IMG/VR virus record: IMGVR_UViG_3300025598_000030
Coordinates: 1-64,000 of that record
Source: a virus
Length of the DNA: 64,000 nucleotides
Direction: 5' to 3' (one strand)
Below are positions 8,848 through 57,669 of the stretch, piece after piece (the stretch's first letter is position 1; each line of letters starts with the position of its first letter). Below the pieces are notes generated by a model. The model searched no databases, was not told where the DNA came from, and saw only the letters and a program-made list of their open reading frames with translations. The translations under genes were made by a program, and so were the position numbers.

Positions 8848-8872
8848 CACCACCTAAATAATATTGTATTAT
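8844..8872 (+). promoter_or_regulatory. Sigma70-type promoter with embedded TAAATA late motif upstream of folE
   Basis: TTGACA (8844-8849)-17 bp-TATTAT (8867-8872); TAAATA at 8855-8860. Confidence 0.6.
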
Positions 8873-9609: not shown

Positions 9610-10166
9610 TGAATAAACTAATTATCGATTATCAAGAATATAAATTTTTAGTTTCAAAAATCTGTCGTGATATTACTTTATCAGGTTGGAAACCCGACTA
9701 TATTGTAGGAATCACTCGTGGCGGATTGCTTCCTGCAGTAATGATTAGTCATTATTTTAATGTTCCGTGCCAAACTCTTAAAGTTAGCCTTCGAGATAGC
9801 GGCAACAATGATACAGAATCTAACTGTTGGATGGCCGACAATGCAATTGGGTATAAATTGAGAGACAACAATGATAAAACTTCAGGATTTAGTGATCCTG
9901 AAAGTAGAAAAAATATTCTTATTGTTGACGATATCAATGATACTGGTGCTACATTTAATTGGATATTAAAAGACTGGCCTTTGAGCTGTTTAAGAGATGA
10001 TCCTGCATGGAATGATGTTTGGAACGGCAACGTGAAGTTTGCAGTTCTTGTTGATAATCTTTCAAGTATTTCCCAAGTTAAAATGGACTATCAAGGTATT
10101 GAGATTAATAAAGCAAACAACGATCTTTGGGTAGAGTTTCCTTGGGAAAATTGGTGGTTAAAATGA
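9609..10166 (+). CDS. Type I phosphoribosyltransferase (purine PRT-like)
   Basis: VGITRGG loop, PRPP motif ILIVDDINDTGAT, WVEFPWE; start ATG 9609 overlapping folE stop. Confidence 0.9.
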   Translation: MNKLIIDYQEYKFLVSKICRDITLSGWKPDYIVGITRGGLLPAVMISHYFNVPCQTLKVSLRDSGNNDTESNCWMADNAIGYKLRDNNDKTSGFSDPESRKNILIVDDINDTGATFNWILKDWPLSCLRDDPAWNDVWNGNVKFAVLVDNLSSISQVKMDYQGIEINKANNDLWVEFPWENWWLK

Positions 10167-10570
10167 ATGATCATATTTTTCCTAGGTCTTCGAATGATAA
10201 TATTTTTGCCGGACCTTTTTCTATTAAAGATGCAAATGTTCCATGGACCAATGTATTACAGGAAGATTTTTACGTTGTAGTATACCGAGACAAATATCCA
10301 GTAACCGAAGGACACTTGCTTTTCGTACCTAAATATAATACACTAGTTGCATTAGGATTCGCATTTGATCAGGCTATTCGTTATGGAAAGTTTATGGTTT
10401 CGCAAGAAACATGCGCCGCATTTAACATCGGATTAAATGCTGGTGAAGCAGCAGGTCAAACTATCATGTGGCCACATATACACCTTATTCCTCGCAGAGT
10501 AGGTGATGTTGATGATCCTGTAGGTGGTGTACGTAACACTATCCCGGGTAAAGGAAATTATAAAAAATGA
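10163..10570 (+). CDS. HIT-family nucleotide hydrolase
   Basis: DKYPVTEGHLLFVPK, NIGLNAGEAAGQTIMWPHIHLIPRR; likely start 10163. Confidence 0.9.
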   Translation: MNDHIFPRSSNDNIFAGPFSIKDANVPWTNVLQEDFYVVVYRDKYPVTEGHLLFVPKYNTLVALGFAFDQAIRYGKFMVSQETCAAFNIGLNAGEAAGQTIMWPHIHLIPRRVGDVDDPVGGVRNTIPGKGNYKK

Positions 10571-11403
10571 GCAAAATTAAAATAGCAGAATTATTTTACA
10601 GCATTCAAGGAGAAGGAAGGTACATGGGAGTACCTTCTATCTTCTTACGTACATTTGGATGCAATTTTCAATGTTCGGGCTTTGGAATGCCTAAGGGTGA
10701 ACGCAGTACAGAAGCTGTTAACATAGATCCTAGTAAATATAAGTCTTATGGCGAGTTGCCATTGGTTAGTACAGGCTGCGACAGTTATGCTAGCTGGGAT
10801 ACAAGATTCAAAAACCTTAGTCCTATGCTGACTACAGACAGCATTGCAGAACAAATTGTTAGCTTGTTGCCACATGGCGAATGGCGAGATGAGCATTTGG
10901 TTATTACCGGTGGTGAACCACTTTTGGGTTGGCAACGTGCTTATCCAGATTTGTTAGAACATCCTAAAATGGAAGATTTAACAGAAATTACTTTTGAAAC
11001 AAATGGTACACAGCAATTATCTCCAGAGTTCGCTGATTATCTAAATATGTGGAACAAAGTGGGTCGAGAGATTACATTTAGTGTTAGTGCAAAATTAAGT
11101 TGTAGTGGTGAATCCAGAGAGGATGCAATTAAACCTAGCACTGTTTGTGAATACGAAAAAGTAGGATTTACCTATCTTAAGTTTGTTGTTGCAACCGAAG
11201 AGGATGCACAAGAAGCCATTGATACTGTAAAAGTATACCGAGAAACTGGCTTCGAAGGACCAGTTTACCTTATGCCTGTAGGCGGAGTAGAAAGTGTATA
11301 CTCGCTAAATAATCGCCGTGTTGCCGATCTTGCAATGCAAAATGGGTTAAGATACAGTGATAGACTCCAAGTTCCACTCTTTGGTAACGCATGGTCGACG
11401 TGA
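10567..11403 (+). CDS. queE: 7-carboxy-7-deazaguanine synthase (radical SAM)
   Basis: ELFYSIQGEG, FLRTFGCNFQC...CDS, VITGGEP, FETNGT, SDRLQ. Confidence 0.93.
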   Translation: MSKIKIAELFYSIQGEGRYMGVPSIFLRTFGCNFQCSGFGMPKGERSTEAVNIDPSKYKSYGELPLVSTGCDSYASWDTRFKNLSPMLTTDSIAEQIVSLLPHGEWRDEHLVITGGEPLLGWQRAYPDLLEHPKMEDLTEITFETNGTQQLSPEFADYLNMWNKVGREITFSVSAKLSCSGESREDAIKPSTVCEYEKVGFTYLKFVVATEEDAQEAIDTVKVYRETGFEGPVYLMPVGGVESVYSLNNRRVADLAMQNGLRYSDRLQVPLFGNAWST

Positions 11404-11464: not shown

Positions 11465-12220
11465 ATGACTAATCCAGTAAACAAAAAAACCAAAGAACAA
11501 TTTTTAAAGGAAATTCCGATCAATTTAGGAATAGAAATAATCGGTGAATATATAAACACCGATACAAAAATTGAATATAGATGTTCTCACGGAACACACT
11601 ACTCATTACCATGGCAAATAAAAAAATTCAAATATTGTTGTCGCAAAGGATACTATGAGAGTGGTAAAATGTGGGAATCAACTATGATATTATCAGAAGA
11701 AAGACTTAAATGGTATAAAGAACAACGACCGGCATTAGATTTTACAAACGCTGTATTGGTATCGGGAACCAGAAATAAATTTAATAACATAAAATGCAAT
11801 ATTCATTCTGATATTACATTTACAGGATATTCGTCAAAACAACATTGCACACCATGCCCGGCATGCAAAGTTGACGATTTTAAAGAATTAATGGCATTAA
11901 GAAAAGGAGTATTTCATGCTATACACAAAATTACACCGATATCAAAATCAGAAAAACTTTGGTTAGATGAATTAAAGATACCGGAAAGACAATACTGGCT
12001 AAAAGATGTAAAATATAGGGTAGATGGGTATGATCCTGTTTCAAACACTGTTTATCTTTATCATGGAAGATTTTGGCACGGTTGCCCAGAAACATTTGAT
12101 CCAGAAATGATACACCCTATTATAAAAATACCTATGAAAGATTTATACGAAAAAACTCTTATGTATGAAAATAAAATTAAAGAAGCTGGATATAATTTAG
12201 TAGTAAAATGGGGAACTTAA
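11465..12220 (+). CDS. Free-standing Vsr/PD-(D/E)xK-type endonuclease with N-terminal Zn-ribbon repeats
   Basis: SKSEKLWLD...YRVDGYD...YLYHGRFWHGCP...GYNLVVKW; CSHG, CNIH, CPAC clusters; start uncertain (11408 or 11465). Confidence 0.8.
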   Translation: MTNPVNKKTKEQFLKEIPINLGIEIIGEYINTDTKIEYRCSHGTHYSLPWQIKKFKYCCRKGYYESGKMWESTMILSEERLKWYKEQRPALDFTNAVLVSGTRNKFNNIKCNIHSDITFTGYSSKQHCTPCPACKVDDFKELMALRKGVFHAIHKITPISKSEKLWLDELKIPERQYWLKDVKYRVDGYDPVSNTVYLYHGRFWHGCPETFDPEMIHPIIKIPMKDLYEKTLMYENKIKEAGYNLVVKWGT

Positions 12221-12699
12221 TGAATAAAATTATTAAACGAGTGTTAGGTATCGATAAACTAGAAGCTGCTACCTTAGAAGCAACTAGACTTGCAGCCGAA
12301 GCAGAAACAAAAGCTCAAGAATTGATTGCTAGGGCAGAAGCAGCTAAAATTGCAGCCAATGCAGCAGAAAATGATAGAAAAGAACAGCAAAGATTAGCTA
12401 AACTAACTCCAAAAGAAATTGCTACAGAAAAGAAAGAACCATATTTTGAAGTAGTAGGATTTCATACTACTCCAGAAAATCCACGTTTTGGCTTTTGGGA
12501 ACTTGACTGGAACGAGTATAAGGTAGTAGAATTAAAAGCGTTAGGATATTATGGTGAAACTGACGAAGAAGTCATCGATCAATGGTTTACTGAGATTTGT
12601 AGAGAATCCGGTACAGCAGTTGGGGCGAGCATGGATCGACGATCTATGGGATTCATCGATGTTAAACAAATTGGCGGTGGCCGCTCGGAGATAAGTTAA
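12220..12699 (+). CDS. Hypothetical protein
   Basis: Coiled-coil N-terminus, FWELDWNE motif; ATG 12220 overlapping upstream stop. Confidence 0.7.
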   Translation: MNKIIKRVLGIDKLEAATLEATRLAAEAETKAQELIARAEAAKIAANAAENDRKEQQRLAKLTPKEIATEKKEPYFEVVGFHTTPENPRFGFWELDWNEYKVVELKALGYYGETDEEVIDQWFTEICRESGTAVGASMDRRSMGFIDVKQIGGGRSEIS

Positions 12700-13697
12700 T
12701 GACATATATTTTGGTAGATACTGCAAATGTTTTTTTCCGGGCCAGGCATGTTGCTCGAGGAAACCTTGAAGAGAAAGTAGGATTAAGCCTACATACTATG
12801 TTTACTAGTATTAGAAAAGCATGGAGAGATTTTAATGGATCTCATGTAATCTTTTGTCTCGAAGGTAGGTCTTGGCGTAAAGATGTTTATCCTCCATACA
12901 AGAGACAAAGATCCGAAGCTCGTGCAGCTTTATCTCCAAGCGAAGCTGAAGAAGAAAAATTATTCTGGGAAACACTTGACGAATTCGAAAATTTCGTAAT
13001 TGAAAAAACTAATTGTACGGTGTTACATAATTCACAATTAGAGGCAGACGATCTCATTGCCGGATGGATACAAGCTCATCCCGATGATCAACATGTAATT
13101 ATTTCAACTGATGGCGATTTTGCACAGTTAATTTCTCCTAATGTTCGTCAATATAATGGTGTTACTGGTGTAACTATTACACATGAAGGTTATTTTGACG
13201 AATTAGGCAAGCGCGTTGTCGATAAAAAAACACAACAAGAAAAACCGGCACCAGACCCAGAATGGTTATTGTTTGAAAAGTGTATGCGAGGCGATACATC
13301 AGATAATATTTTCAGTGCATATCCGGGTGTTCGAACTAAAGGGTCGAAGAATAAAGTTGGCCTAATTGATGCATACGCTGACAGACAATCTAAAGGATAT
13401 AATTGGAATAATATCATGTTACAGCGATGGGTAGATCATGACGGAATCGAACATCGAGTTATCGACGATTATTCTCGAAATGTAACTTTGTGTGATTTGA
13501 CTGCACAACCCGATCATATTAAAATGATAATTAAAGAAACCATTGATGTAGCAAAAACTGCTGAAAAAAATGTCGGACAAGTAGGAGTTCGATTTCTTAA
13601 ATTTTGCGGAAAATATGATCTAGTAAAGATTACTGAAAATGCCGATAGTTACGTTTACCCACTTAATGCGAGGTATATAAATGAATGCCACAACTAA
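12699..13697 (+). CDS. rnh: T4 RNase H-like 5'-3' exonuclease
   Basis: LVDTAN, SWRK...YK, EADDLIA, STDGDFAQL, GDTSDNI motifs. Confidence 0.92.
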   Translation: MTYILVDTANVFFRARHVARGNLEEKVGLSLHTMFTSIRKAWRDFNGSHVIFCLEGRSWRKDVYPPYKRQRSEARAALSPSEAEEEKLFWETLDEFENFVIEKTNCTVLHNSQLEADDLIAGWIQAHPDDQHVIISTDGDFAQLISPNVRQYNGVTGVTITHEGYFDELGKRVVDKKTQQEKPAPDPEWLLFEKCMRGDTSDNIFSAYPGVRTKGSKNKVGLIDAYADRQSKGYNWNNIMLQRWVDHDGIEHRVIDDYSRNVTLCDLTAQPDHIKMIIKETIDVAKTAEKNVGQVGVRFLKFCGKYDLVKITENADSYVYPLNARYINECHN

Positions 13698-14163
13698 AGT
13701 TTTAGTTCCTAACAAATGTTGGATCATAGAAGAACATGGTTCAAAATTAGGTACTTTGAATAAAGAAAAGAAAGGATATTCTTTTTTCCGTAAAGGAGAT
13801 AAAACAGAATTATCCACTATTAGGGATGTTCGAGAGATTTTTGGACCAGATCTATTTGATAATGTGAGTGATTCTAAACTCTCGATCAAAAAAGAAGAAA
13901 TCAAATCAATATATGATTATCCTTGTAGCTCAAAACCATTTAATCCGGTTTATAATATAAAGAAAAAGCTACCAATATATGCTAAAAGCTCAAAGAGTAA
14001 GAGTTTATATTGTGCAGGACACTATATAATTAAATTTCGAAAAGGATGGGTAAAAAGCTTCTGTCCTAAATTAATTACGTTAGAACGTTACCCTTATCAA
14101 GGCCCATTTAAAAATGAAAATGAAATGAAAAATGCTTTAAATTTGGTGAATAAAAATGAGTAA
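13681..14163 (+). CDS. Hypothetical protein
   Basis: 160-aa ORF in operon. Confidence 0.7.
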   Translation: MNATTKVLVPNKCWIIEEHGSKLGTLNKEKKGYSFFRKGDKTELSTIRDVREIFGPDLFDNVSDSKLSIKKEEIKSIYDYPCSSKPFNPVYNIKKKLPIYAKSSKSKSLYCAGHYIIKFRKGWVKSFCPKLITLERYPYQGPFKNENEMKNALNLVNKNE

Positions 14164-14386
14164 TCTCAATACATTAGCTATCGAAAAGTTTTTAGAAAAG
14201 GCAAGAATTTCAATCAAAACAAACCAAAGAAATTTAGTTTTAGACATTAAAGAAGTTCAAGCATTGTCCGATAGTTTGTCAGTTGTAATGACTAGACTAG
14301 CAGGCACACTAGACGAACAATTAAAAAATGCCCAAAATCAACCAAATGTCATTTCTATCAATATGGACGGGGGCGGTTTTCGGTAA
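14156..14386 (+). CDS. Hypothetical protein
   Basis: 76-aa ORF ending MDGGGFR. Confidence 0.65.
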   Translation: MSNLNTLAIEKFLEKARISIKTNQRNLVLDIKEVQALSDSLSVVMTRLAGTLDEQLKNAQNQPNVISINMDGGGFR

Positions 14387-14394
14387 AAATAGAA

Positions 14395-14429
14395 TAAATA
14401 AGTGAGTATTTAAATTATACTCACTTATT
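14395..14429 (+). promoter_or_regulatory. TAAATA late motif overlapping a 13-bp hairpin that abuts the start codon
   Basis: AATAAGTGAGTAT (14397-14409) / ATACTCACTTATT (14417-14429); TAAATA 14395-14400; ATG 14430. Confidence 0.6.
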
Positions 14430-14729
14430 ATGAGCCGACCAAAACCAAACATATTATTAGAAATAACCAATAAAAAAACTTATAAAACTGAACAGGTTTT
14501 AGAAGCAGAAGCTATTTGGGCGGTTTTTTATAAAGATAAACCTGTTAATCTTAAGACTAGTTCTGTATTAGCTCAGCAATTAGGTCCGAAGTATAAAAAA
14601 GTATCTTTTTCTAATGCAGGACACGCACATAATCTTGCAGAAAAACTAAACAAGTTGTATAATTGTGAAGATTTTTCAGTATACAAACTAACTACAGGTC
14701 AAAAGATTTCGGATGGATATAAAGCATAA
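14430..14729 (+). CDS. Hypothetical protein
   Basis: 99-aa ORF (MSRPKP...KYKKVSFSNAGHA). Confidence 0.75.
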   Translation: MSRPKPNILLEITNKKTYKTEQVLEAEAIWAVFYKDKPVNLKTSSVLAQQLGPKYKKVSFSNAGHAHNLAEKLNKLYNCEDFSVYKLTTGQKISDGYKA

Positions 14730-15108
14730 ATTAACGGTAGAATTTCTAACAAAATGGCTTGGGTATGAGCCAACGGCATTGGTTGTCGAAAAATATTACC
14801 AAAAATGGTGGAAAAATATTAGAGAAAATGGCGAACGTAGTCTTCGTTTGACATATGATGGTTTTACTTTTTTAAAAAATCATGACCTTTTAAAATTTTA
14901 TCAAATTGACATAGTAGATAGTGTTTATACCAGTAAAGTAATGCTGCAACTAGACAAGTATCTAGATTGTCCTTGGTACCTATCTTCTAACCAAACGATA
15001 TGGGTTAGCCGAGATAAAGTTGCAGTGCAACTCATTTTGTTCGGTGGCGATTTGGCAAAATTCGGGCATGCTAAACACAGATCCGAAGAAAAATCATTGA
15101 CTGAATGA
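14713..15108 (+). CDS. Hypothetical protein
   Basis: 131-aa ORF (SLRLTYDG, LDCPWY). Confidence 0.7.
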   Translation: MDIKHKLTVEFLTKWLGYEPTALVVEKYYQKWWKNIRENGERSLRLTYDGFTFLKNHDLLKFYQIDIVDSVYTSKVMLQLDKYLDCPWYLSSNQTIWVSRDKVAVQLILFGGDLAKFGHAKHRSEEKSLTE

Positions 15109-15124
15109 TAAAAAAGCGTATAAT
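15097..15124 (+). promoter_or_regulatory. Sigma70-type promoter
   Basis: TTGACT-16 bp-TATAAT upstream of ATPase gene. Confidence 0.55.
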
Positions 15125-15170
15125 AAACGCTTGAAAGATGATTCCTTAACACTAAACTTAAAGGTATTTT

Positions 15171-16259
15171 ATGGCAGAGAAAATTTCAGTTAATCGCACT
15201 GTGAGCCCCAACGAAGCTAAGAAAAGCATTCGTAAGTGCATTAAAGTCAAACGTCCTGTTTTTATGTGGGGACCTCCGGGTATTGGCAAGAGCGACATCG
15301 TTAAACAGATCGGCGATGAGCAAAATCGTCCAGTTATCGACGTTCGTTTGAGCCTTTGGGAACCTACCGATATTAAAGGTATTCCTTATTATAATGCATC
15401 ACTTAATACTATGAGTTGGGCTCCGCCTGCAGAATTGCCCACTGATCCAGATAGTAATGCTATTTTATTCCTTGATGAACTTAATTCAGCAGCTCCGGCT
15501 ACCCAAGCTGCTGCTTATCAGCTTATTTTGAATCGCCGTGTTGGCACATATCGATTGCCCGACGGTGTAGCTATTGTGGCCGCCGGTAATCGCGAAACTG
15601 ATAAGGGCGTTACTTATCGTATGCCTGCGCCGTTGGCAAATCGATTCCTTCATGTCGAACTTCGTACTGATTTTGAAGATTGGCTATTCTGGGCAACTGC
15701 TAATAACGTTCATCAACAGGTTGTTGGTTATCTTAGTTTTGCAAAGCAAGATTTGTATGATTTCGATCCTAAGAGTGCAAGCCGTAGTTTTGCAACTCCT
15801 CGCTCTTGGAGTTTTGTAAGTGATCTTCTTATCGATGATGACTTGGATGACGATACCCTAACAGATCTTATTTCAGGTGCTGTTGGTGAAGGACCTACTC
15901 ATAAATTTATGGCACACCGTAAGGTCGCTAAACAGATGCCTAACCCTGAAGACATCCTGTCAGGTAAGGTTACTAAATGTTCGATTAAAGAAATCAGCGC
16001 AATGTATTCGCTAGGCATCAGTTTGTGTTACGAACTCAAGGAAGCAGATAAGAAGAAAGTTAAGAATTGGGATGCATTAGCAGACAACTTTTTCCGCTTT
16101 TTGATGGATAATTTTCCGACTGAATTGACTGTTATGGCATCTAAAATCGCTCTTACTAACTACGATCTTCCATTTGATACGCAGCGACTTAAGAATTTTG
16201 ATGAATTCCATGACAAATATGGCAAATACATCCTCACTGCAATGGATCAAGTAGTTTGA
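15171..16259 (+). CDS. MoxR-like AAA+ ATPase
   Basis: Walker A GPPGIGKS, Walker B ILFLDE, AAGN sensor, PLANRF arginine finger, TPRSW. Confidence 0.92.
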   Translation: MAEKISVNRTVSPNEAKKSIRKCIKVKRPVFMWGPPGIGKSDIVKQIGDEQNRPVIDVRLSLWEPTDIKGIPYYNASLNTMSWAPPAELPTDPDSNAILFLDELNSAAPATQAAAYQLILNRRVGTYRLPDGVAIVAAGNRETDKGVTYRMPAPLANRFLHVELRTDFEDWLFWATANNVHQQVVGYLSFAKQDLYDFDPKSASRSFATPRSWSFVSDLLIDDDLDDDTLTDLISGAVGEGPTHKFMAHRKVAKQMPNPEDILSGKVTKCSIKEISAMYSLGISLCYELKEADKKKVKNWDALADNFFRFLMDNFPTELTVMASKIALTNYDLPFDTQRLKNFDEFHDKYGKYILTAMDQVV

Positions 16260-16265
16260 ATTTGT

Positions 16266-16287
16266 GGGCCCGCAAGGGCCCTTTTTT
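16266..16287 (+). terminator. Rho-independent terminator
   Basis: GGGCCC-GCAA-GGGCCC followed by TTTTTT. Confidence 0.8.
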
Positions 16288-16303
16288 GATTAAGGAAATT
16301 TAT

Positions 16304-17548
16304 ATGACCACTACAGCTCCGAAAAAATCGTCAAAATCGAAACCTAATAAAACGTTTTCTACTGCAGAAAAAAATCAAATTATCGAAAAATTGATCGGTG
16401 CACGTATTGCATTGCTGCTTAAACATCCGTTTTTCGGTAATATGGCTACTCGCATGAGATTAATTGATGCTAGTGATTGGTGCGATACGTTAGCAACTGA
16501 TGGTCGTAATTTTTATTACAATAATCAATTTGTAAATGACCTTCGTCCAAAAGAAGTAGAATTTGGGTTTGCACACGAAGTTTTACATAACGTGTTTGAT
16601 CATCTTGGACGATTCGGAACTCGCGATAAACAACTTTCAAATATTGCGGCAGATTTTGCTGTTAATCAGATTTTGGTCGACAACAAAATCGGAGAAGTTC
16701 CTCGTACTATTAAAATTATCCAAGATAACAAATATAGAAGTTGGAGTTTTGAACAAATTTACGAAGATCTTGAAAAACGTTGCAAAAAGATTAATATTGA
16801 AGATCTAGGCGAATTGCTTGACGAACATCTCGACGGCGAAGACGGCAGTGGCGGAGGTGACGGCGATAAAGAAGGCAAACGTCCAAAACTTTCTCCTGAA
16901 GAACGTAAACAAATTCGCGACGAAATTAAAGAAGCAATGTTGGCTGCTGCACAGGCTGCAGGTGCAGATAAAACTCCTGCAGGTATTCAGCGATTAATTT
17001 CCGATTTTACCGAACCTAAAATGGATTGGCGCCAATTGCTTCGAATGAATATTCAAAGTATTCTTAAGAGCAATTTTAGTTTTGCTCGTCCTAATCGTAA
17101 AAGTCAGCAATGCGGTGCAGTTCTTCCTGGTTTGTTAAATGAAGAAACCATCGATGTTTGCGTTGGTATTGATATGAGTGGTAGTATTACTGATAAACAA
17201 GCTAAAGATATGATCAGCGAAGTCAAAGGTATTATGGACGAATATCAAGATTTCAAACTAACATTGTGGACGTTTGATACTAAAGTATATGATGTTGCAG
17301 AATTTACTGCAGATACTGCTAATGATATTACCGAATATATTCCTAAAGGCGGTGGTGGTACATCGTTTGAATGTAATTGGGATTTTATGAAAGACAACGG
17401 CATTGAACCAAAGAAATTTGTTATGTTTACAGATGGTTATCCTTGCAGTGGTTGGGGAGATGAAGATTATTGTGACACATTGTTCATTATTCATGGAAAC
17501 AATAAAATTGTTGCACCATTTGGTGAAACTGCGTATTACGAACTATAA
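16304..17548 (+). CDS. Metallopeptidase-like plus vWA domain protein (DUF2201-like)
   Basis: HExxH (AHEVLH), MIDAS DMSGS, GGGGT, FTDG; SD AAGGA before ATG 16304. Confidence 0.88.
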   Translation: MTTTAPKKSSKSKPNKTFSTAEKNQIIEKLIGARIALLLKHPFFGNMATRMRLIDASDWCDTLATDGRNFYYNNQFVNDLRPKEVEFGFAHEVLHNVFDHLGRFGTRDKQLSNIAADFAVNQILVDNKIGEVPRTIKIIQDNKYRSWSFEQIYEDLEKRCKKINIEDLGELLDEHLDGEDGSGGGDGDKEGKRPKLSPEERKQIRDEIKEAMLAAAQAAGADKTPAGIQRLISDFTEPKMDWRQLLRMNIQSILKSNFSFARPNRKSQQCGAVLPGLLNEETIDVCVGIDMSGSITDKQAKDMISEVKGIMDEYQDFKLTLWTFDTKVYDVAEFTADTANDITEYIPKGGGGTSFECNWDFMKDNGIEPKKFVMFTDGYPCSGWGDEDYCDTLFIIHGNNKIVAPFGETAYYEL

Positions 17549-51416: not shown

Positions 51417-52430
51417 ATGTCACTATTTAAAAAAGTAGCAGCCTTTACAGATCTACACGTCGGTCTCAAGGGTAATAGTCAATTACACCTGCAAGATTGC
51501 GAAGAATTTGTAGATTGGTTTATTGAAAAGGCCAAAGATGCCGGTTGCGATACTGGCATCTTTTTAGGTGACTGGCATCATCAGAGAAATTCAATCAATC
51601 TAATCACTTTAGATACTAGTGTACGTCTTTTAGAAAAACTCGGAAAAGCTTTTGACCAATTTATTTGGTTTCCCGGCAACCATGATTTATTTTTTAGAGA
51701 TAAACGTGATGTACATAGTTCTTCCTTCGGACGTCATATTCCTGGAGTGACTGTTATCGATACTGTTACTACTATCGATGATGTCACTTTAGTTCCATGG
51801 CTAGTTAAAGAAGAGTGGAAATCTATTTCAAAATCTAAAAGTAGGTATGTTTTCGGCCATCTCGAATTGCCTACATTTATGATGAATGCTATGGTTGCAG
51901 CTCCAGACCACGGATTATTGCAGCCTACTCATTTCCGTAATCAGGAACTAGTGTTTAGTGGACATTTCCATAAACGTCAAAATCAAGGAAAGATTTGGTA
52001 TATCGGTAATGCGTTTCCACATGATTTTGCCGATTCGTGGGACGATGAAAGAGGAATGATGATTATGGAATGGGGTAGAACTCCTGAATTCCACGCTTGG
52101 ACCGATGCTCCTAAATATCGTTCGATCAAACTCAGTCAACTGATAGAAGATAAAGATAACATTTTAAAATCTAAGATGTATCTCAAAGTTACAGCTGATG
52201 TAGAATTAAATTACGAAGAAGCTATCTTTCTAAAAGAGAGTTTTATGGCTGATGAAAATGTGAGAGAATTTAGTATGGTTAGAGATCGTATTAGCTTAGA
52301 AGGAGTTGAAGAAACACCAACTGAAGCTACAATACAAAGTGTAGATCAAATTGTAACACAAGAATTACTTAACATTTCAAGCGAACAGTTTAGTTCGGCA
52401 ACATTATTGGATATTTGGCAACGTCTATGA
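51417..52430 (+). CDS. Recombination nuclease, Mre11/SbcD (gp47-like)
   Basis: DLH, FLGDWH, GNHD, FGH, SGHFH metallophosphoesterase motifs. Confidence 0.93.
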   Translation: MSLFKKVAAFTDLHVGLKGNSQLHLQDCEEFVDWFIEKAKDAGCDTGIFLGDWHHQRNSINLITLDTSVRLLEKLGKAFDQFIWFPGNHDLFFRDKRDVHSSSFGRHIPGVTVIDTVTTIDDVTLVPWLVKEEWKSISKSKSRYVFGHLELPTFMMNAMVAAPDHGLLQPTHFRNQELVFSGHFHKRQNQGKIWYIGNAFPHDFADSWDDERGMMIMEWGRTPEFHAWTDAPKYRSIKLSQLIEDKDNILKSKMYLKVTADVELNYEEAIFLKESFMADENVREFSMVRDRISLEGVEETPTEATIQSVDQIVTQELLNISSEQFSSATLLDIWQRL

Positions 52431-54217
52431 CAAACATTGAACTCGAAAGTATGACACTCAAGAATTTTATGAGTGTCGGTAATCAAACACAATCTATAAA
52501 TTTTAAAAGCGACTGTTTAACCTTAGTATTAGGAACAAATCTTGACCTCGGAGGTGAAGATACAGGTAGTCGAAATGGAACAGGCAAGACTACTATGATT
52601 AATGGATTGAGTTATCTTTTTTTCGGAGAGGCATTATCTCGAATTAAGAAAGAAAACTTAATTAACAAAACTAACGGCAAGAATTTGTTAGCTACTGGAT
52701 CATTTAAAATCAACGGTGTTCAATATAGGATCGAACGTGGCCGAAAGCCAACATTTCTTAAACTTTATATTAACGATAAAGAACATGTTGGCCGAGATAA
52801 TGAAGAATCTCAAGGCGATAGTAGAGAAACTCAAAAATATATAGAAAATCTAGTCGGTATGAGTCATACTATGTTTAAACATATTGTTGCTCTCAATACC
52901 TACACCGAGCCATTCCTTAGTTTAAAAGCTGCTGATCAGCGCGAAGTTATCGAAGAGCTTATCGGTAGTACAATGTTAAGTACTAAAGCCGAATCATTGA
53001 GATTGTTAATTAAGGAAACTAAAGATGCTATCACTACTGAACAAATAAAAATTGATAGTGTTAAAAATGCTAATGAGGGTATACAACGCAGTATCAATTC
53101 ATTAATTGCAAAGCGTGACTTATGGAACAAAAAGCAAGAAAAGGATCTTGAAGATTATGCTGCAGCGATTGCCGAATTAGAAAGTTTGGATATTTCTGCG
53201 GAACTCCAATTACATAACGATTTAAAAGTATGGAAAGATAATAATACTCAGTTACAGAATTTGAAGAAGCAAAAAGCTGGTTCGGATTCGTCATTGATAC
53301 AAGCTGATAGAAATGTCAAAAGATATACTAATGAATTAGAAAAATTAGCAGACAATAAGTGCCCTCAATGTGATCAAGATTTGCATAATGATACACATGT
53401 CACTTTAATTGCCAATACAGAGAAAAATTTATCTGATGCTGTTGATTATTATAATACTGTAAAGAGCAATATCGATGAATTAACTTTGCAAATTAATGCA
53501 ATCGGTGATATCGGAGTATGTCCTAAGACCTTTTATTCTACTGAGGCAGAAGCGTTAGGACATCAAAATCAATTAATGAATTTAGAGAAAGCATTAATTG
53601 ATTGTAGTAATCAGGTAAATCCATATACAGATCAAATTGAAGAGCTAGAAAAAACTGCCTTACAGTCTATTTCTTGGGATAAGATCAATGAATTAACGAA
53701 ATTAAAAGAGCATCAAGACTTTTTACTTAAACTATTAACTAACAAGGATAGTTTTATCCGTAAAAAGATTATCGATCAAAATCTTGCACATCTTAATCAT
53801 AGACTTAGCTATTATTTGGATAGATTGAAACTTCCGCATTTAGTTAAATTTAAAAATGATTTAGAAGTAGAGATTACAGATTTTGGTAAAGACCTAGACT
53901 TCGACAATTTATCTAGAGGCGAACGTAATAGACTTATTTTAAGTATGAGTTTTGCTTTTAGAGATGTTTGGGAAAGTCTATACCAAAGCGTTAACTTGTT
54001 ATTTGTCGACGAGTTAATGGATTCGGGAATGGACTCTGCCGGTGTTGAAGCAGGACTAAGACTGTTAAAACAAATGGCTAGAGAAGGTGGTAAAAACATT
54101 TACTTGATTTCTCATAAAGATGAACTGGTTAGTAGAGTTGACAGTATCTTAAGGGTAGTTAAAGAAAATGGATTTACTTCTTATTCAAATTCAACCGAGC
54201 CAGTAGGACTATTATGA
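52427..54217 (+). CDS. Recombination ATPase, Rad50/SbcC (gp46-like)
   Basis: KNFMS, NGTGKTT, CPQC zinc hook, LSRGE, LLFVDE, ISHK; likely start ATG 52427. Confidence 0.95.
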   Translation: MTNIELESMTLKNFMSVGNQTQSINFKSDCLTLVLGTNLDLGGEDTGSRNGTGKTTMINGLSYLFFGEALSRIKKENLINKTNGKNLLATGSFKINGVQYRIERGRKPTFLKLYINDKEHVGRDNEESQGDSRETQKYIENLVGMSHTMFKHIVALNTYTEPFLSLKAADQREVIEELIGSTMLSTKAESLRLLIKETKDAITTEQIKIDSVKNANEGIQRSINSLIAKRDLWNKKQEKDLEDYAAAIAELESLDISAELQLHNDLKVWKDNNTQLQNLKKQKAGSDSSLIQADRNVKRYTNELEKLADNKCPQCDQDLHNDTHVTLIANTEKNLSDAVDYYNTVKSNIDELTLQINAIGDIGVCPKTFYSTEAEALGHQNQLMNLEKALIDCSNQVNPYTDQIEELEKTALQSISWDKINELTKLKEHQDFLLKLLTNKDSFIRKKIIDQNLAHLNHRLSYYLDRLKLPHLVKFKNDLEVEITDFGKDLDFDNLSRGERNRLILSMSFAFRDVWESLYQSVNLLFVDELMDSGMDSAGVEAGLRLLKQMAREGGKNIYLISHKDELVSRVDSILRVVKENGFTSYSNSTEPVGLL

Positions 54218-54519
54218 TAAACAAGTATATAGAATTACATGAAAAATTTATGGAATTACTCGCAGAGTATCATAATAATCACATTTATTTTATAAGGAAG
54301 CCGAATACTTATACGTTGCGATTAGTTGCAAAAACGATGAGAGAGCTAAAAAGGCTCACTCGTGAAATGAAAGTTAACAACGTAGAACTTAGTCGTACTT
54401 TATTAGAAGAAAAAAGAAAAAGTGTGATAGAAAATAAAATACAAAAGGAGATGAGGAAAAATGAGCGACTTAAACGAATCAACAGTCAATACGACGGAAC
54501 AGATGGTAACAACACTTAA
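54214..54519 (+). CDS. Small basic helical hypothetical protein
   Basis: 101-aa ORF coupled to gp46. Confidence 0.6.
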   Translation: MINKYIELHEKFMELLAEYHNNHIYFIRKPNTYTLRLVAKTMRELKRLTREMKVNNVELSRTLLEEKRKSVIENKIQKEMRKNERLKRINSQYDGTDGNNT

Positions 54520-54676
54520 GACATATGTAGATGAAAATAGTAAGTTTATAAATGGAAATTCAGCGGCAGGAACCCGTGCACGTAAGGCGTTAGCCGAACT
54601 TGGCAAACTAGTAAAAGCTCGACGTAATGAAATTACTGCCGAAAAGAATGCACGTAAAATTAATAAAGTAAATTAA
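54461..54676 (+). CDS. Histone H1-like (Hc1-family) small basic protein
   Basis: KF..GNSAAGTRARKAL.EL.KL...RRNEI..EK; SD GAGG. Confidence 0.75.
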   Translation: MSDLNESTVNTTEQMVTTLKTYVDENSKFINGNSAAGTRARKALAELGKLVKARRNEITAEKNARKINKVN

Positions 54677-54679
54677 TTA

Positions 54680-55633
54680 ATGAAAGTACTATTTCACACC
54701 CATACTCCTTGTTATTTAGGAACGACCGTTTCTGTAATGAACTATGCAAGATATAATCAAGAAGTATTAGGTAATGAGAGCATTATTTGCTATAATCATG
54801 ATTTTAAGGGAGAAATGATCAATGGTAACCTTGATAAAGATGTGCTAAAAAAATGGACTGATATATGTGAAGTTAGAAGCACCACTGATGGAAACTATAA
54901 TGATGTCTGTAAAGATGTCGATGTTGCATATTTTCAAAGAAGTGGCGAGCCAGAACCATTACCGAATACTGCTAGAACTGCTATTCATGCTGTTTTTCAA
55001 CTTAACACCCCACATGGTGATCGATATGCATATATTTCGGAATGGTTATCTAAAAAAGTAACCGGCGGTGTTGCACCTTGGGTTCCATATATAGTGCAGA
55101 TGCCGAAGCCTAATCAAGATATGAGAGAATTTTTCGGTATTCCTAAAGATAAAATCATTATCGGTAGATTAGGAAGTTGGAATATTTTTGTCGACGGAAT
55201 GGAATGGGCATGTCAAGCTATTGTTAATATTGTAAACAAACGGAATGATATTGTTTTCCTATTAGTCAATACTAAAAAGTTTTACGAACATCCTAATATC
55301 ATTTATGTAAATGGGATTGCAGATGAACAAATAAAATCTAATTTTATAAACACATGTGATGCAATGATACACTCTAGATGGCAAGGAGAAAGTTTCGGAA
55401 TGGCTATCTGCGAATTTCTATTTCATAATAAGCCAGTACTATCATGGAACGGAGGAGTCGATCAGCATCATATCGATCTTCTAAAAGATACCGGATTATT
55501 GTATAATAGCACCGCTGATTTAGAGAATAAATTAGATAATATTAAATCGTTTAATGGCGATTATCATAAAATTGTCGAAAAATTTAATCCTAATAATGTA
55601 ATGCAGCAGTTTAAATCAGTATTTTTAGATTGA
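54680..55633 (+). CDS. GT-B fold glycosyltransferase
   Basis: GTTVS...YA.YN, IGRLGS, FINTCDAMIHSRWQGESFGMAICEF...KPV. Confidence 0.85.
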   Translation: MKVLFHTHTPCYLGTTVSVMNYARYNQEVLGNESIICYNHDFKGEMINGNLDKDVLKKWTDICEVRSTTDGNYNDVCKDVDVAYFQRSGEPEPLPNTARTAIHAVFQLNTPHGDRYAYISEWLSKKVTGGVAPWVPYIVQMPKPNQDMREFFGIPKDKIIIGRLGSWNIFVDGMEWACQAIVNIVNKRNDIVFLLVNTKKFYEHPNIIYVNGIADEQIKSNFINTCDAMIHSRWQGESFGMAICEFLFHNKPVLSWNGGVDQHHIDLLKDTGLLYNSTADLENKLDNIKSFNGDYHKIVEKFNPNNVMQQFKSVFLD

Positions 55634-56058
55634 TGACTTGGTTCTATCAAGGACAAATAGTTACTGAACTTCCTGAGACCTGTGTTGGTTTTATATATCT
55701 TATTACTAACACTATCTCAGGACGTATGTATATTGGCAAAAAACTGGCAAAATTTTCAAAAACAAAATATAAAACAGTTAAACTTAAAAACGGCAAAAAG
55801 AAACGTAAAAAAATCAAAGGCACAATAGAATCAGATTGGCAAACATATTACGGTTCCAGTGATGAACTTAATCGAGATATAGAAAAATTAGGCAAAGAAA
55901 ACTTTCAAAGAGAAATATTACATTATTGTAATAGCAAGGCACAAACTTCATACTTAGAAGCAAAAGAACAATTTGACCGGCGCGTGTTAGAATCCACTGA
56001 ATATTACAATGGTCATATACGTGTTAGAGTCCACGGCTCACATATACTCAAAAAATAA
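55633..56058 (+). CDS. GIY-YIG nuclease (T4 endonuclease II-like, catalytic domain only)
   Basis: GFIYLITN...MYIGKK, DWQTYYGSS, F.REIL, YLE, YYNG. Confidence 0.85.
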   Translation: MTWFYQGQIVTELPETCVGFIYLITNTISGRMYIGKKLAKFSKTKYKTVKLKNGKKKRKKIKGTIESDWQTYYGSSDELNRDIEKLGKENFQREILHYCNSKAQTSYLEAKEQFDRRVLESTEYYNGHIRVRVHGSHILKK

Positions 56059-56059
56059 G

Positions 56060-56490
56060 GCAAAATAAGCAGTAAGGCTAGCATCGGCTGATATCGGATG
56101 CCCATGATAACCACACGAAAGTGATGGGGACGGAAGACTCTGCGCTGCACAGAGGACTCAACTACTATCCTTAACAGGACGAGGATCGCGAATTGCTGCG
56201 GTTTAGTTGCTTAAGAAAAGAATTCAGGCACAAAGAAGGGAGAAAAACCCTACGTTGTTACATAAGACTAGCGTTTGTGTAATAGCCGCCGTCATATAAA
56301 GACGCTGCTCGAGGTACCGGATGACCGCCTCTGTAATGCAGTAACGCTAGTGGCTGTGATACTCAGATAATCTACAGTTTTTTGCCCGGCAACGGGCAAA
56401 GCATGGCTGCTTTATCTAGATAATCATTAAAAAAAAGAAAATGCTTCGAGCTGATAAGCGAAGAAGCAGGTGAGCTCTTGCTCACCTTTC
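56060..56490 (+). ncRNA. Candidate large structured non-coding RNA
   Basis: ORF-free, GC-richer intergenic region with many stems, GNRA tetraloops and a 9-nt loop-to-downstream complement; see findings. Confidence 0.6.
56468..56490 (+). terminator. Terminator-like hairpin ending the structured region
   Basis: AGGTGAGC-TCTT-GCTCACCT then short T run; TAAATA follows at 56494-56499. Confidence 0.45.
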
Positions 56491-56520
56491 GCATAAATAA
56501 ATTATAGTGTGGAAAAATAA

Positions 56521-57669
56521 ATGAGATTAACTGATGTATTATCGAAAAATGAGTTAAGAACTTTAAGAGAAGCAGATAATGCGCTAGTACCTGCAGGTGG
56601 AAGAAAAATAACAGGTGGAGCAATAGTACCTGCAAATAAAGCAAATGATCCTCGTTCCGGAGAATTCCTTGGAGGAAGTTCTACAAATCCATCAGGCAAT
56701 CAAAGTAATATGCAGTATCAAGTGCCTAATACTCAGAATCCTAACGGAATTAATCCGGCTAACTGGTTTAAACCTCAAAATCCTAATGCTGTAAAGATTA
56801 ATCAAACTCCACCACCTGGTCAAACAACTCAAGCAGGTCCTACTGGGGCAACTCCACCACCTGGTCAAACAACTCAAGCAGGTCCTACTGGGGCAACAAC
56901 AACTCCGAATACGCCAACAGGAATTACAGGGCCTGCGGGAACAACCCCACCGCCGCCTGGTCAAACAACTCAGCCTGCTACAACTACAGCAGCAAATTCT
57001 GCAGCAGGACTTAATATGCCAAAAAGTGGGATTATGTCTAAAGCTGTTGGCAAAATTGCTACCGGTCTTGGAAAAGCAGTCGGAGGAGTTCAAGGTGCTG
57101 CTCAAGGTGCTAAATTAGCATTTAATCGAGGACAAAGTGCTGCGAGTGCTGCTGCAACTAGAAATGTTGCTCAAGCAGGTGGAATGAGTCCTGGTCAAAT
57201 ACGTTCAGCGCTTAATACACCGAAAGGATCAGCAACTCCTGGAGGTACTGCACCTAGTGCTAGTGGTACTAGAGGCGCAGCTGGTACAGCAGGAATAGGT
57301 AGTGGCGGAAGAGGATCTGGTGCTGCAGGTGCTGCAAGCGCCGGAGGTGCTTCAACTAATACTAGAACTGCCGGTACATCTGGTCCAGCAGGACGTAGCC
57401 CATTTCCGAATTTAGTAGGACAAGATTTTGATAGCACACACAATGTACCAGTCACTGCTGCAGGCGCTGCAAAATGGAATGCAGAAAAAACTAAAACTCA
57501 ACAAAACCTTGATTGGTTTACTCAAAAAGAAACTGCTGCTACTAGAGCAGGATATTTGCCGAATAAAAACACAGGAGTATGGACAGCACCGGCAGCTTCT
57601 GGAACACAACCTACTGCCGAATCGGTAGAAGACATAATTAGATTAGCTAAACAACTAGCGGCTCGTTAA
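56521..57669 (+). CDS. Low-complexity G/A/T/P-rich protein, possible internal head protein
   Basis: Preceded by TAAATA; MRLTDVL...LREA N-terminus and ESVEDIIRLA C-terminus. Confidence 0.6.
   Translation: MRLTDVLSKNELRTLREADNALVPAGGRKITGGAIVPANKANDPRSGEFLGGSSTNPSGNQSNMQYQVPNTQNPNGINPANWFKPQNPNAVKINQTPPPGQTTQAGPTGATPPPGQTTQAGPTGATTTPNTPTGITGPAGTTPPPPGQTTQPATTTAANSAAGLNMPKSGIMSKAVGKIATGLGKAVGGVQGAAQGAKLAFNRGQSAASAAATRNVAQAGGMSPGQIRSALNTPKGSATPGGTAPSASGTRGAAGTAGIGSGGRGSGAAGAASAGGASTNTRTAGTSGPAGRSPFPNLVGQDFDSTHNVPVTAAGAAKWNAEKTKTQQNLDWFTQKETAATRAGYLPNKNTGVWTAPAASGTQPTAESVEDIIRLAKQLAAR
56806..56895 (+). repeat. Two tandem 45-bp coding repeats (TPPPGQTTQAGPTGA)
   Basis: ACTCCACCACCTGGTCAAACAACTCAAGCAGGTCCTACTGGGGCA x2; degenerate third copy near 56944-56973. 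Confidence 0.9.

What the first reader, a model, noticed from the sequence alone, without database searches (positions are those of the whole stretch)
56060..56490. Candidate large, ornate non-coding RNA immediately behind a stand-alone GIY-YIG nuclease
Seen: the largest non-coding gap in an otherwise densely packed genome, visibly GC-richer, and almost fully foldable on the + strand: GCATC/GATGC (56081-56101); CCCAT..CAC-GAAA-GTG.ATGGG (56101-56128, GNRA loop); CTCTG/CAGAG (56138-56154); CAACTA/TAGTTG (56159-56209) enclosing TCCT-TAAC-AGGA; AGGG/CCCT (56237-56251); a 12-bp G-U-containing stem GTTGTTACATAA/TTGTGTAATAGC (56254-56286) whose loop region ACTAGCGTT is exactly complementary to AACGCTAGT at 56343-56351 (pseudoknot or switch); CGTC/GACG; CTGC..GAGG..CGG-ATGA-CCG..CCTC..GCAG multiloop (56305-56341); TTTGCCCG-GCAA-CGGGCAAA (56381-56400, GNRA loop); terminal hairpin 56468-56487. 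G-U pairs and GNRA loops argue for RNA rather than DNA structure. It begins right after the stop of a nuclease that has only a catalytic domain plus a Lys-rich insert (KTKYKTVKLKNGKKKRKKIK). Inference: an undescribed phage ncRNA, possibly forming a ribonucleoprotein with (guiding or restraining) the nuclease, or a ribozyme/structural RNA. I cannot assign it to a known class.
Basis: partly seen in the sequence, partly recalled or inferred. Interest (0 to 1): 0.85.

Follow-up and report, generated by a model that had tools for sequence, protein, structure and literature searches.

The report
Full-length twin-box Polynucleobacter-1 phage RNA
The gene-free gap behind a small nuclease gene of this uncultured freshwater T4-like phage encodes a real, doubly knotted RNA of about 415 bases whose first third is an already catalogued orphan motif, and whose function and partner are still unknown.

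Summary
Window 56076-56490 (+) encodes a structured RNA. Its 5' third (56076-56212) is a full-length match to Rfam RF01718, Polynucleobacter-1 (93.3 bits, cut-off 37), so it is not wholly undescribed. No Rfam family covers the other two thirds, yet they are conserved as one unit with the 5' third: 130 of 237 fetched viral loci hold the full length, in 94 distinct sequence clusters. On 94 sequences, 88.1% of cells pair against 74.2% in shuffles, and 73 of 89 pairs change on both sides. Two pseudoknots are supported. Two exposed 7-letter words (56365-71 and 56418-24) are identical in 91 of 94 RNAs and change together at least 21 times. I found no complementary partner.

The nuclease-RNP idea is not supported. 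The GIY-YIG gene is a syntenic neighbour: 115 of 147 instances have it directly upstream. An unrelated PDDEXK nuclease replaces it in 10. The RNA also occurs in three bacterial genomes with no such nuclease nearby. Close GIY-YIG relatives can lack the RNA. This scan has already reported the same family on other DNA several times.

The parts
55633..56058 (+). GIY-YIG nuclease gene: catalytic domain only, 141-142 aa. The ORF listing gives TTG at 55630; ATG at 55633 overlaps the stop of the upstream gene.
   Evidence: Pfam SegE_GIY-YIG, E 1.5e-33, residues 4-130. phrog_447, E 9.7e-38. 60-85% identical to 39 relatives, with conserved G20, Y23, Y34, G36, R94, N127.
56076..56490 (+). Whole RNA, about 415 nt. 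The ends are inferred from conservation, not from transcripts.
   Evidence: nhmmer profile hits spanning the full length in 130 of 237 loci. Covariation on 94 sequences.
56076..56212 (+). 5' domain = Rfam RF01718, Polynucleobacter-1. Helices: 56081-85/56097-101; 56111-16/56121-27; 56138-42/56150-54; 56159-64/56204-09; 56169-70/56177-78; 56184-89/56198-203.
   Evidence: 93.3 bits, gathering score 37, model positions 1-141 of 141. Helices 1-10.
56237..56251 (+). Small hairpin AGGG/CCCT.
   Evidence: 4 pairs, all with changes on both sides; the outermost pair is 85.1% paired and the inner three 93.6% (helices 11-12).
56254..56286 (+). Long hairpin whose loop (56268-74) forms pseudoknot 1.
   Evidence: 11 pairs, 92.6% paired, 11 of 11 change on both sides, many G-U pairs (helix 13).
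56268..56350 (+). Pseudoknot 1: 56268-74 pairs with 56344-50.
   Evidence: Inner six pairs 97.2% paired, 6 of 6 change on both sides (helices 14-15). Two compensating changes against L002 alone.
56291..56325 (+). Pseudoknot 2: GUCAU (56291-95) pairs with AUGAC (56321-25).
Evidence: 98.9% paired; C-G 70 / U-A 24 and A-U 59 / G-C 24 (helix 16).
56305..56341 (+). Helices CTGC/GCAG (56305-08/56338-41) and GAGG/CCTC (56311-14/56328-31), enclosing the invariant GGUA..ACCGCC core.
   Evidence: helices 17-19. Invariant columns.
56354..56377 (+). Hairpin that displays twin box 1 (AGAUAAU, 56365-71) in its loop.
   Evidence: Identical to box 2 in 91 of 94 RNAs. Mutual information 0.99 bits at position 1. 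The stem is badly aligned in A2 (45% paired), so I read it by eye.
56380..56401 (+). Hairpin UUUUGCCC/GGGCAAAG between the two boxes.
   Evidence: 8 pairs, 97.2% paired, 4 with changes on both sides (helix 22).
56418..56424 (+). Twin box 2 (AGAUAAU), preceded by the conserved AUCU.
56444..56463 (+). 3' hairpin with the conserved GAGC..AGCGAA motif.
   Evidence: Conserved block. 70.3% paired in a poorly aligned part (helix 23).
56469..56489 (+). Terminal G+C-rich hairpin followed by UUU; a possible terminator.
   Evidence: 7 pairs, all with changes on both sides, 71.5% paired (helix 24). The strict terminator scan did not call it.
56492..56499 (+). CATAAATA, a 7-of-8 match to the T4 late-promoter word TATAAATA (consensus recalled), ahead of the next gene at 56521-57669.
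   Evidence: The exact word lies just after the RNA in 16 of 94 relatives and upstream of the RNA in 0 of 94.

Best explanation
This is one more full-length member of a large family of phage-borne structured RNAs. Only the 5' domain of that family is catalogued, as Polynucleobacter-1, RF01718.

Shown: an RNA of about 415 nt with at least 14 covarying helices and two pseudoknots. It lies at the 3' end of the rightward gp47/gp46/Hc1-like/nuclease gene block of an uncultured freshwater T4-like phage. A hairpin and a late-promoter-like word for the next gene follow it.

Inferred mechanism: the RNA is read through from the nuclease operon and acts on its own, in trans. Its knotted core serves as a rigid scaffold that holds out two copies of one 7-letter word (AGAUAAU here). 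Both copies are read by the same outside partner, most likely by base pairing with a nucleic acid that is not encoded next to the RNA, such as a host RNA or a distant target. The two words must therefore change together. The neighbouring GIY-YIG nuclease is a conserved neighbour, not the partner.
For: - Identity: RF01718 at 93.3 bits against a cut-off of 37.
- Full length conserved in 130 of 237 loci, 94 clusters.
- 88.1% of cells paired against 74.2% shuffled. Covariation score 0.412 against 0.170 (0 of 500 shuffles) and 0.055-0.083 when slid.
- Twin words identical in 119 of 132 instances by exact search and in 91 of 94 alignment rows.
- Position 1 changes at least 21 times on the tree, always in both words. 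8 of 8 independent pairs on supported branches go the same way, p 0.008.
- No column between the two words tracks position 1 (no mutual information above 0.25). The concordance is therefore not a swapped cassette.
- Independence from the nuclease: PDDEXK_15 sits in the same slot in 10 instances, one of them (L230) with ordinary words.
- Bacterial copies keep the twin words (AGCGAAA twice, GGCGAAA twice) without either nuclease.
- 9 of 77 close GIY-YIG relatives lack the RNA.
- No late-promoter word upstream in 0 of 94, and a median gap of 20 nt to the nuclease stop, which fits read-through.
Against: - No partner was found. The reverse complement of each RNA's own word is not enriched within 5 kb (40 seen, 31.6 expected).
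- There is no genome-wide excess of a phage's own word.
- 0 homologous coding sites carry the complement of the own word in five phage genomes, one of them 99% complete.
- There is no paired complement above the control in the three bacterial carriers.
- A pairing partner with U opposite position 1 would tolerate both A and G, so pairing alone does not fully explain the strict concordance.
- Transcription, RNA ends and abundance are unknown.
- A non-homologous nuclease in the same slot could also be read as 'this slot needs a nuclease for the RNA'.
Confidence: 0.45

Rival explanations
1. Protein scaffold or sponge. The two identical words are binding sites for the two halves of a dimeric RNA-binding protein, from phage or host, whose specificity differs between lineages. 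The RNA titrates or organises that protein.
For: - Two identical sites 53 nt apart in similar local contexts: conserved ACUC or AUCU before the word, with identity reaching a few bases upstream.
- No nucleic-acid partner was found.
- In bacteria a DUF6641 gene lies divergently next to the RNA in 2 of 2 loci with room.
Against: - None of the six neighbouring protein families has a column that tracks the words convincingly. GIY-YIG is the weakest, 0.22 of 0.99 bits.
- DUF6641 is absent from 5 large RNA-bearing phage contigs, one 99% complete, and from the flanks.
- At least 21 flips of one base would each need a matching change in protein specificity.
Confidence: 0.2
2. Nuclease partner. The RNA binds the catalytic-domain-only GIY-YIG enzyme and guides or restrains it.
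For: - The nuclease lacks a DNA-binding domain.
- 115 of 147 RNAs have it directly upstream on the same strand, median gap 20 nt.
- 68 of 80 best GIY-YIG relatives have the RNA downstream.
- Where GIY-YIG is missing in phages, another small nuclease fills the slot.
Against: - The whole neighbourhood is syntenic, so adjacency is inherited.
- An unrelated nuclease fold goes with the same RNA.
- Bacterial copies have no nuclease next to them.
- 9 of 77 close relatives and 0 of 3 cultured phages with a homologue carry the RNA.
- The protein family occurs in 504 cultured phage records, and the RNA gave no blastn match in that collection.
- Protein columns do not track the words.
- No end segment matches flanking DNA.
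Confidence: 0.05
3. Cis-acting element of the operon: a 3' UTR that stabilises or terminates the nuclease operon transcript, or a leader of the gene downstream, as the 2010 description suggested for the 141-nt motif.
For: - It sits 18 nt after the stop codon, with no promoter-like site before it.
- A terminal hairpin follows.
- The 2010 table marks the motif as likely cis-regulatory (table passage only).
Against: - About 415 nt with two pseudoknots and twin co-evolving words is far more than a stabiliser needs.
- Downstream genes differ or converge on the RNA in many loci.
- The next gene here has its own late-promoter-like word.
- In bacteria the RNA stands behind a divergent promoter region with unrelated genes after it.
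Confidence: 0.1
4. Catalytic or self-assembling RNA: a ribozyme, or a multimeric ornate RNA like ROOL or GOLLD.
For: - Size, two pseudoknots and an invariant core (GGUA..ACCGCC).
- Occurrence in both phages and bacterial islands.
Against: - No Rfam ribozyme, intron, GOLLD or ROOL match.
- The twin words are not self-complementary across variants, and no loop in the RNA covaries as their complement.
Confidence: 0.1

Closest known systems
Polynucleobacter-1 RNA motif (Rfam RF01718; Weinberg et al. 2010, Genome Biol 11:R31, PMC2864571)
   Same: Window 56076-56212 matches the whole 141-position model at 93.3 bits. The freshwater habitat agrees. Members also occur in genomes of the order reached through a Burkholderiales record.
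   Different: The catalogued motif is only the 5' third. Here and in 130 other loci it continues for roughly 220-270 more conserved bases, with two pseudoknots and twin words. It lies 3' of a gene, not in an evident 5' UTR. Its function is unknown in print as far as my searches reach.
cow-rumen-2 RNA (Rfam RF02947)
   Same: A weak match over 56255-56350. It shares a hairpin with a UAGC loop, AUAGCCGCC, GGAUGACC and GUAA in the same order.
   Different: 15.7 bits against a cut-off of 66, E 4. It was not seen again in 19 relatives at E up to 1. This is a lead for a shared central module, not membership.
Nuclease-associated guide RNAs (HEARO / IscB omega RNA, TnpB reRNA). What I say about these systems is recalled.
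   Same: A structured RNA of a few hundred bases directly beside a small nuclease gene.
   Different: No Rfam HEARO match. The nuclease is GIY-YIG, not RuvC/HNH. Co-occurrence is not obligatory. There is no terminal guide segment; the variable part is two internal 7-letter words with no match found.
Large ornate phage-associated RNAs GOLLD and ROOL. What I say about these RNAs is recalled.
   Same: Large, highly structured, phage-borne, of unknown function.
   Different: No covariance-model match. This RNA is smaller, and no tRNA lies in the window.
Seg-type free-standing GIY-YIG homing endonucleases of T4 (Pfam PF19835)
   Same: The catalytic domain matches the SegE_GIY-YIG profile.
   Different: Only 142 aa, with no C-terminal DNA-binding region. 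It holds a fixed place in a conserved gene order rather than sporadic insertion sites. It is highly conserved: 60-85% identity to the window's protein over 40 sequences.

Membership tests
Polynucleobacter-1 RNA (RF01718) | Covariance-model score at or above Rfam's gathering score over the full model | tested here: met
   93.3 bits against 37, model positions 1-141 of 141, E 1e-18. Same result through the genome search.
Polynucleobacter-1 RNA (RF01718) | Consensus helices kept by compensating changes in relatives | tested here: met
   Helices 1, 2, 5, 6, 7 and 9 are 86.6-98.1% paired, and at least 2 pairs change on both sides in every one. The inner 2 pairs of the second hairpin are badly aligned (35.2% paired).
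Polynucleobacter-1 RNA (RF01718) | Stand-alone motif of about 141 nt, thought to be a 5' UTR element | tested here: not met
   It is the 5' domain of an RNA of about 415 nt. It lies 18 nt after a stop codon.
Guide RNA of a nuclease (OMEGA/HEARO type) | Obligatory co-occurrence of the RNA and its nuclease | tested here: not met
   13 of 134 RNAs with room have no GIY-YIG, and 10 of those have PDDEXK instead. 3 bacterial copies have neither. 9 of 77 GIY-YIG relatives lack the RNA. 0 of 3 cultured phages have it.
Guide RNA of a nuclease (OMEGA/HEARO type) | Variable guide segment that matches a target or the element's flank | tested here: not met
   The only fast-varying parts are the two 7-letter words. 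Their complement is not enriched nearby (40 against 31.6) and is not at homologous sites in five genomes (0 found).
Guide RNA of a nuclease (OMEGA/HEARO type) | Physical complex and RNA-dependent cleavage | not testable with these tools
No complex job was run.
Seg-type homing endonuclease cassette | Sporadic presence at varying insertion sites among related phages | tested here: not met
   The same order, gp47-like, gp46-like, Hc1-like, nuclease, RNA, recurs across the loci.
Seg-type homing endonuclease cassette | GIY-YIG catalytic domain plus a separate DNA-binding domain | tested here: not met
   The catalytic domain covers residues 4-130 of 142, and no second domain is found.
cow-rumen-2 RNA (RF02947) | Score at or above the gathering score | tested here: not met
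   15.7 bits against 66.
GOLLD, ROOL, group I/II introns, tmRNA, RNase P RNA | Any match in Rfam 15 or ARAGORN | tested here: not met
   RF01718 is the only gathering-level match in 64 kb. Nothing relevant at E up to 10. No tRNA or tmRNA.

The most novel reading that the evidence does not exclude
The RNA is a self-contained, bivalent, programmable reader. Its knotted core presents two copies of one short specificity word that pairs with a host or rival nucleic acid. The rapid concerted change of the word (at least 36 changes of word among 94 RNAs) would record an arms race. The same device moves between giant T4-like phages and bacterial islands, where it lies beside DUF6641, an integrase and a Zorya system. 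It would then be a new class of RNA-only or RNA-plus-unknown-protein effector in phage-host conflict.
Probability: 0.15. Interest if true: 0.85.

Novelty: new variant of a known kind. Interest (0 to 1): 0.55.

Why it matters
An orphan motif listed in 2010 turns out to be the first domain of a much larger, doubly knotted RNA.

Two internal words stay identical while changing often. This is an unusual evolutionary signature: identity covariation, not complementarity. It points to an unknown reader.

For this window specifically, the result is confirmatory. It adds one more member and argues against an RNA-guided GIY-YIG nuclease.

Tried and rejected
1. DNA similarity to cultured phages. blastn of 56060-56520 against 50,697 records gave no match.

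2. Synteny by the upstream glycosyltransferase-like gene. Only 1 of 80 loci (L002) holds the RNA. That gene is not a good anchor.

3. Genome contigs pattern scan. The 15-base pattern is too short for 596 billion bases.

4. A partner for the words inside the RNA. The only hot spot is the G/U-rich strand at 56202-07 (30 own against 17.7 for other words). It is already paired in two covarying helices, so I rejected it.

5. Partner in the flanks, as a genome-wide motif, at homologous coding sites of five phage genomes, or in intergenic DNA. Nothing was found. Two copies of the complement at window 11016 and 11036 lie inside a QueE-like ORF, and its homologues in three other phages do not carry them. 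This is coincidence.

6. Paired complements in the three bacterial carriers: no more than the reversed-pattern control.

7. DUF6641 as a universal partner: 0 of 5 large phage contigs, none in the flanks or in G000.

8. Late promoter for the RNA: 0 of 94. Simple sigma-70 and terminator scans found nothing at the RNA.

9. Solved-structure relatives of the nuclease by sequence: only 3r3p_A at E 0.066. A link to T4 endonuclease II, which I recalled, found no support by sequence.

10. Sequencing runs. 20 DNA runs hold the stretch (16 named studies; one row names none); 19 are labelled freshwater metagenome and one bioanode metagenome. No RNA holder is listed.

11. Ideas considered from the word sequences alone and dropped, with no test possible or with variants that do not fit: CsrA GGA sites (42 of 94 RNAs start the word with A), a tRNA anticodon-loop complement, the anti-Shine-Dalgarno sequence, C/D boxes, self-complementary dimerisation (fails for the GCAUAAU variant), and a -10 promoter mimic.

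12. Literature. Searches found no paper on the extended RNA. Of Weinberg 2010 I saw only the table passage, and of Rfam 15 only a table passage. Supplements are closed, and the 2010 supplement may describe the motif's flanks.

Full report
**What is there.** The window is part of an 84,180-base IMG/VR viral contig that CheckV rates 24% complete. The genes around the finding are T4-like:
- an SMC/Rad50-like gp46 homologue at 52415-54217;
- a small Hc1-like basic protein at 54461-54676;
- a glycosyltransferase-like gene;
- a 142-aa GIY-YIG protein at 55630-56058;
- on the other strand, a T4 baseplate protein.

Between the GIY-YIG stop and the next start codon lie 462 bases without an ORF of 60 codons. 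This is the largest such gap in the window. Its GC is 0.45-0.46 against about 0.3-0.37 upstream.

**Known part.** Rfam 15 gives exactly one match at gathering level in the 64 kb: RF01718, Polynucleobacter-1, at 56076-56212 on the + strand. It scores 93.3 bits against a cut-off of 37 and covers all 141 model positions. The only paper in the library that names the motif is Weinberg et al. 2010. I saw its table row, which lists the motif as a probable RNA, possibly cis-regulatory, from Burkholderiales and fresh water or estuary.

**Unknown part.** A permissive Rfam scan of 55950-56600 finds nothing else near any cut-off. The best is cow-rumen-2 at 15.7 bits against 66. Yet the rest is not filler. 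A profile built from six sequences matched 145 of the 237 loci so fetched. In 130 of them the match spans from the 5' domain to beyond the second box. With the window and L002 this gives 132 full-length instances in 94 clusters at about 92% identity. All 19 short loci that I re-scanned carry RF01718 above its cut-off and no second family. RF01718 is therefore the 5' domain of a larger conserved RNA.

**Structure.** I wrote a structure in window coordinates and counted it on a MAFFT alignment of the 94 cluster representatives (A2).
- 88.1% of 8053 cells form standard pairs, against 74.2% in shuffles.
- 73 of 89 pairs show changes on both sides.
- 1153 cells carry such changes, against 342 in shuffles.
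- The covariation score is 0.412, against 0.170 in shuffles (0 of 500 reach it) and 0.055-0.083 when partners are slid by 1-3 columns.

Both long-range pairings are among the best supported. Parts of the alignment around box 1 and in the 3' tail are poor, so those stems rest on weaker numbers.

**Twin words.** Two 7-letter words, 56365-71 and 56418-24, are the same (AGAUAAU). They are preceded by conserved ACUC and AUCU.
- Across 132 instances, 119 have identical words in these places. There are eight different words.
- In the alignment, 91 of 94 rows agree. The other three are shifted in register or differ by one letter.
- Mutual information between the first letters is 0.99 bits, and no other column of the RNA exceeds 0.25.
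- I built a tree without these columns. On it the first letter changes at least 21 times and the whole word at least 36 times, always in both copies.
- 8 of 8 independent pairs on supported branches agree. The tree is a quick one from about 330 columns, so the counts on all branches are rough.

Earlier agents of this scan reported the same 'twin boxes' on other DNA. I took that as a lead and re-derived it here.

Every search was negative:
- no complementary segment inside the RNA;
- none enriched within 5 kb;
- no genome-wide motif that follows the word;
- no homologous coding site in five phage genomes with four different words;
- no paired complement in the bacterial carriers beyond the control.

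One apparent pair of complements in this window is a coding coincidence.

**The nuclease.**

From the RNA side, among 147 instances:
- 115 have a GIY-YIG homologue directly upstream on the same strand, median gap 20 nt;
- 6 have one ORF in between;
- 13 have no room upstream;
- 13 have none.

Ten of those 13 carry a 172-173-aa PDDEXK_15 nuclease in the same slot (E 9.7e-28). One of them, L230, has ordinary words.

From the protein side, among the 80 best GIY-YIG relatives in viral contigs, 68 have the RNA downstream, 3 have no room and 9 have room but no RNA. More distant homologues occur in 504 cultured phage records, mostly cyanophages. The three I opened have no 400-base gap and no RF01718 match.

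The neighbourhood is one conserved block: gp47-like, gp46-like, Hc1-like, nuclease, RNA, then variable genes and the baseplate genes on the other strand. No residue column of the nuclease tracks the words. I read the nuclease as a conserved enzyme of the recombination gene block, replaceable by another nuclease fold, that happens to precede the RNA. The replacement can also be read the other way, and I leave 5% for a true partnership.

**Bacterial copies.** I sampled 151 genomes of the order of the genome behind L343, whose record title names Burkholderiales. Three have RF01718 above its cut-off.
- All three also match the later domains.
- All three carry twin words: AGCGAAA twice in one, GGCGAAA twice in two.
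- No GIY-YIG or PDDEXK gene lies nearby.
- In both loci with room, a DUF6641 gene stands divergently next to the RNA's 5' end.
- In one genome the RNA lies between a tyrosine recombinase and a Zorya type I system (ZorC, ZorD).
- DUF6641 is not in five large RNA-bearing phage contigs.

These copies show that the RNA can stand as its own transcription unit and is not tied to the phage nuclease.

**Verdict.** The mechanism remains inferred. My best reading, a trans-acting scaffold with two identical read-out words, carries 0.45.

Public knowledge covers only the 5' domain, so I class the full-length RNA as a new variant of a known kind. This window adds a further member to a family that this scan has already met repeatedly.

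Noticed in passing
L446 (G054:C4:62500-82499), RNA at about 9744-10203 on the minus strand: A bacterial copy of the full-length RNA. It lies between a tyrosine recombinase (8230-8868) with a 224-aa unknown ORF on one side, and a divergent DUF6641 gene (10373-10840) followed by a Zorya type I system (ZorD 11762-15757, ZorC 15757-17238, MotB-like, ZorA-like) on the other. The word AGCGAAA occurs four times in this RNA: both boxes, the central loop and the 3' hairpin.
   Followed up: partly
L087:10462-10980 and nine other loci (L082-L086, L088, L230, L165, L155): A PDDEXK_15 nuclease (phrog_244, annotated RusA-like resolvase) takes the place of the GIY-YIG gene directly upstream of the RNA. This is non-homologous displacement within a conserved gene order.
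   Followed up: partly
window 56521-57669: A 382-aa protein with no Pfam or PHROG match. It has low-complexity tandem PPPGQTTQAGPTGAT-like repeats and follows a late-promoter-like word. The gene in this slot belongs to many unrelated families in other loci (F7, F9, F10, F11, F14, F15).
   Followed up: no
window 54461-54676: A 71-aa basic protein. Its family (82-aa member L149:11038-11286) matches Pfam Hc1, histone H1-like (E 5.1e-13). The family is conserved between the gp46-like gene and the nuclease in 89 flanking ORFs.
   Followed up: no
window 56255-56350: Weak resemblance to Rfam cow-rumen-2, with the same order of a UAGC loop, AUAGCCGCC, GGAUGACC and GUAA. The central knotted module may recur in another orphan family.
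   Followed up: partly
L517, L527, L543, L550, L553, L559, L563, L565: Close GIY-YIG relatives (65-74% identical by the best aligned segment) with about 1500 bases downstream and no RNA match at E 1e-5. I did not look at what fills the slot there.
   Followed up: no
L002:3044-4990: Two tandem paralogues of the glycosyltransferase-like gene precede the nuclease in the closest relative. The window has one.
   Followed up: no
G156 (345,154 bases, CheckV 99%): The RNA-bearing phages include genomes of about 345 kb, so this window's phage is probably a giant T4-like phage. That fits the 24% completeness of its 84-kb contig.
   Followed up: no
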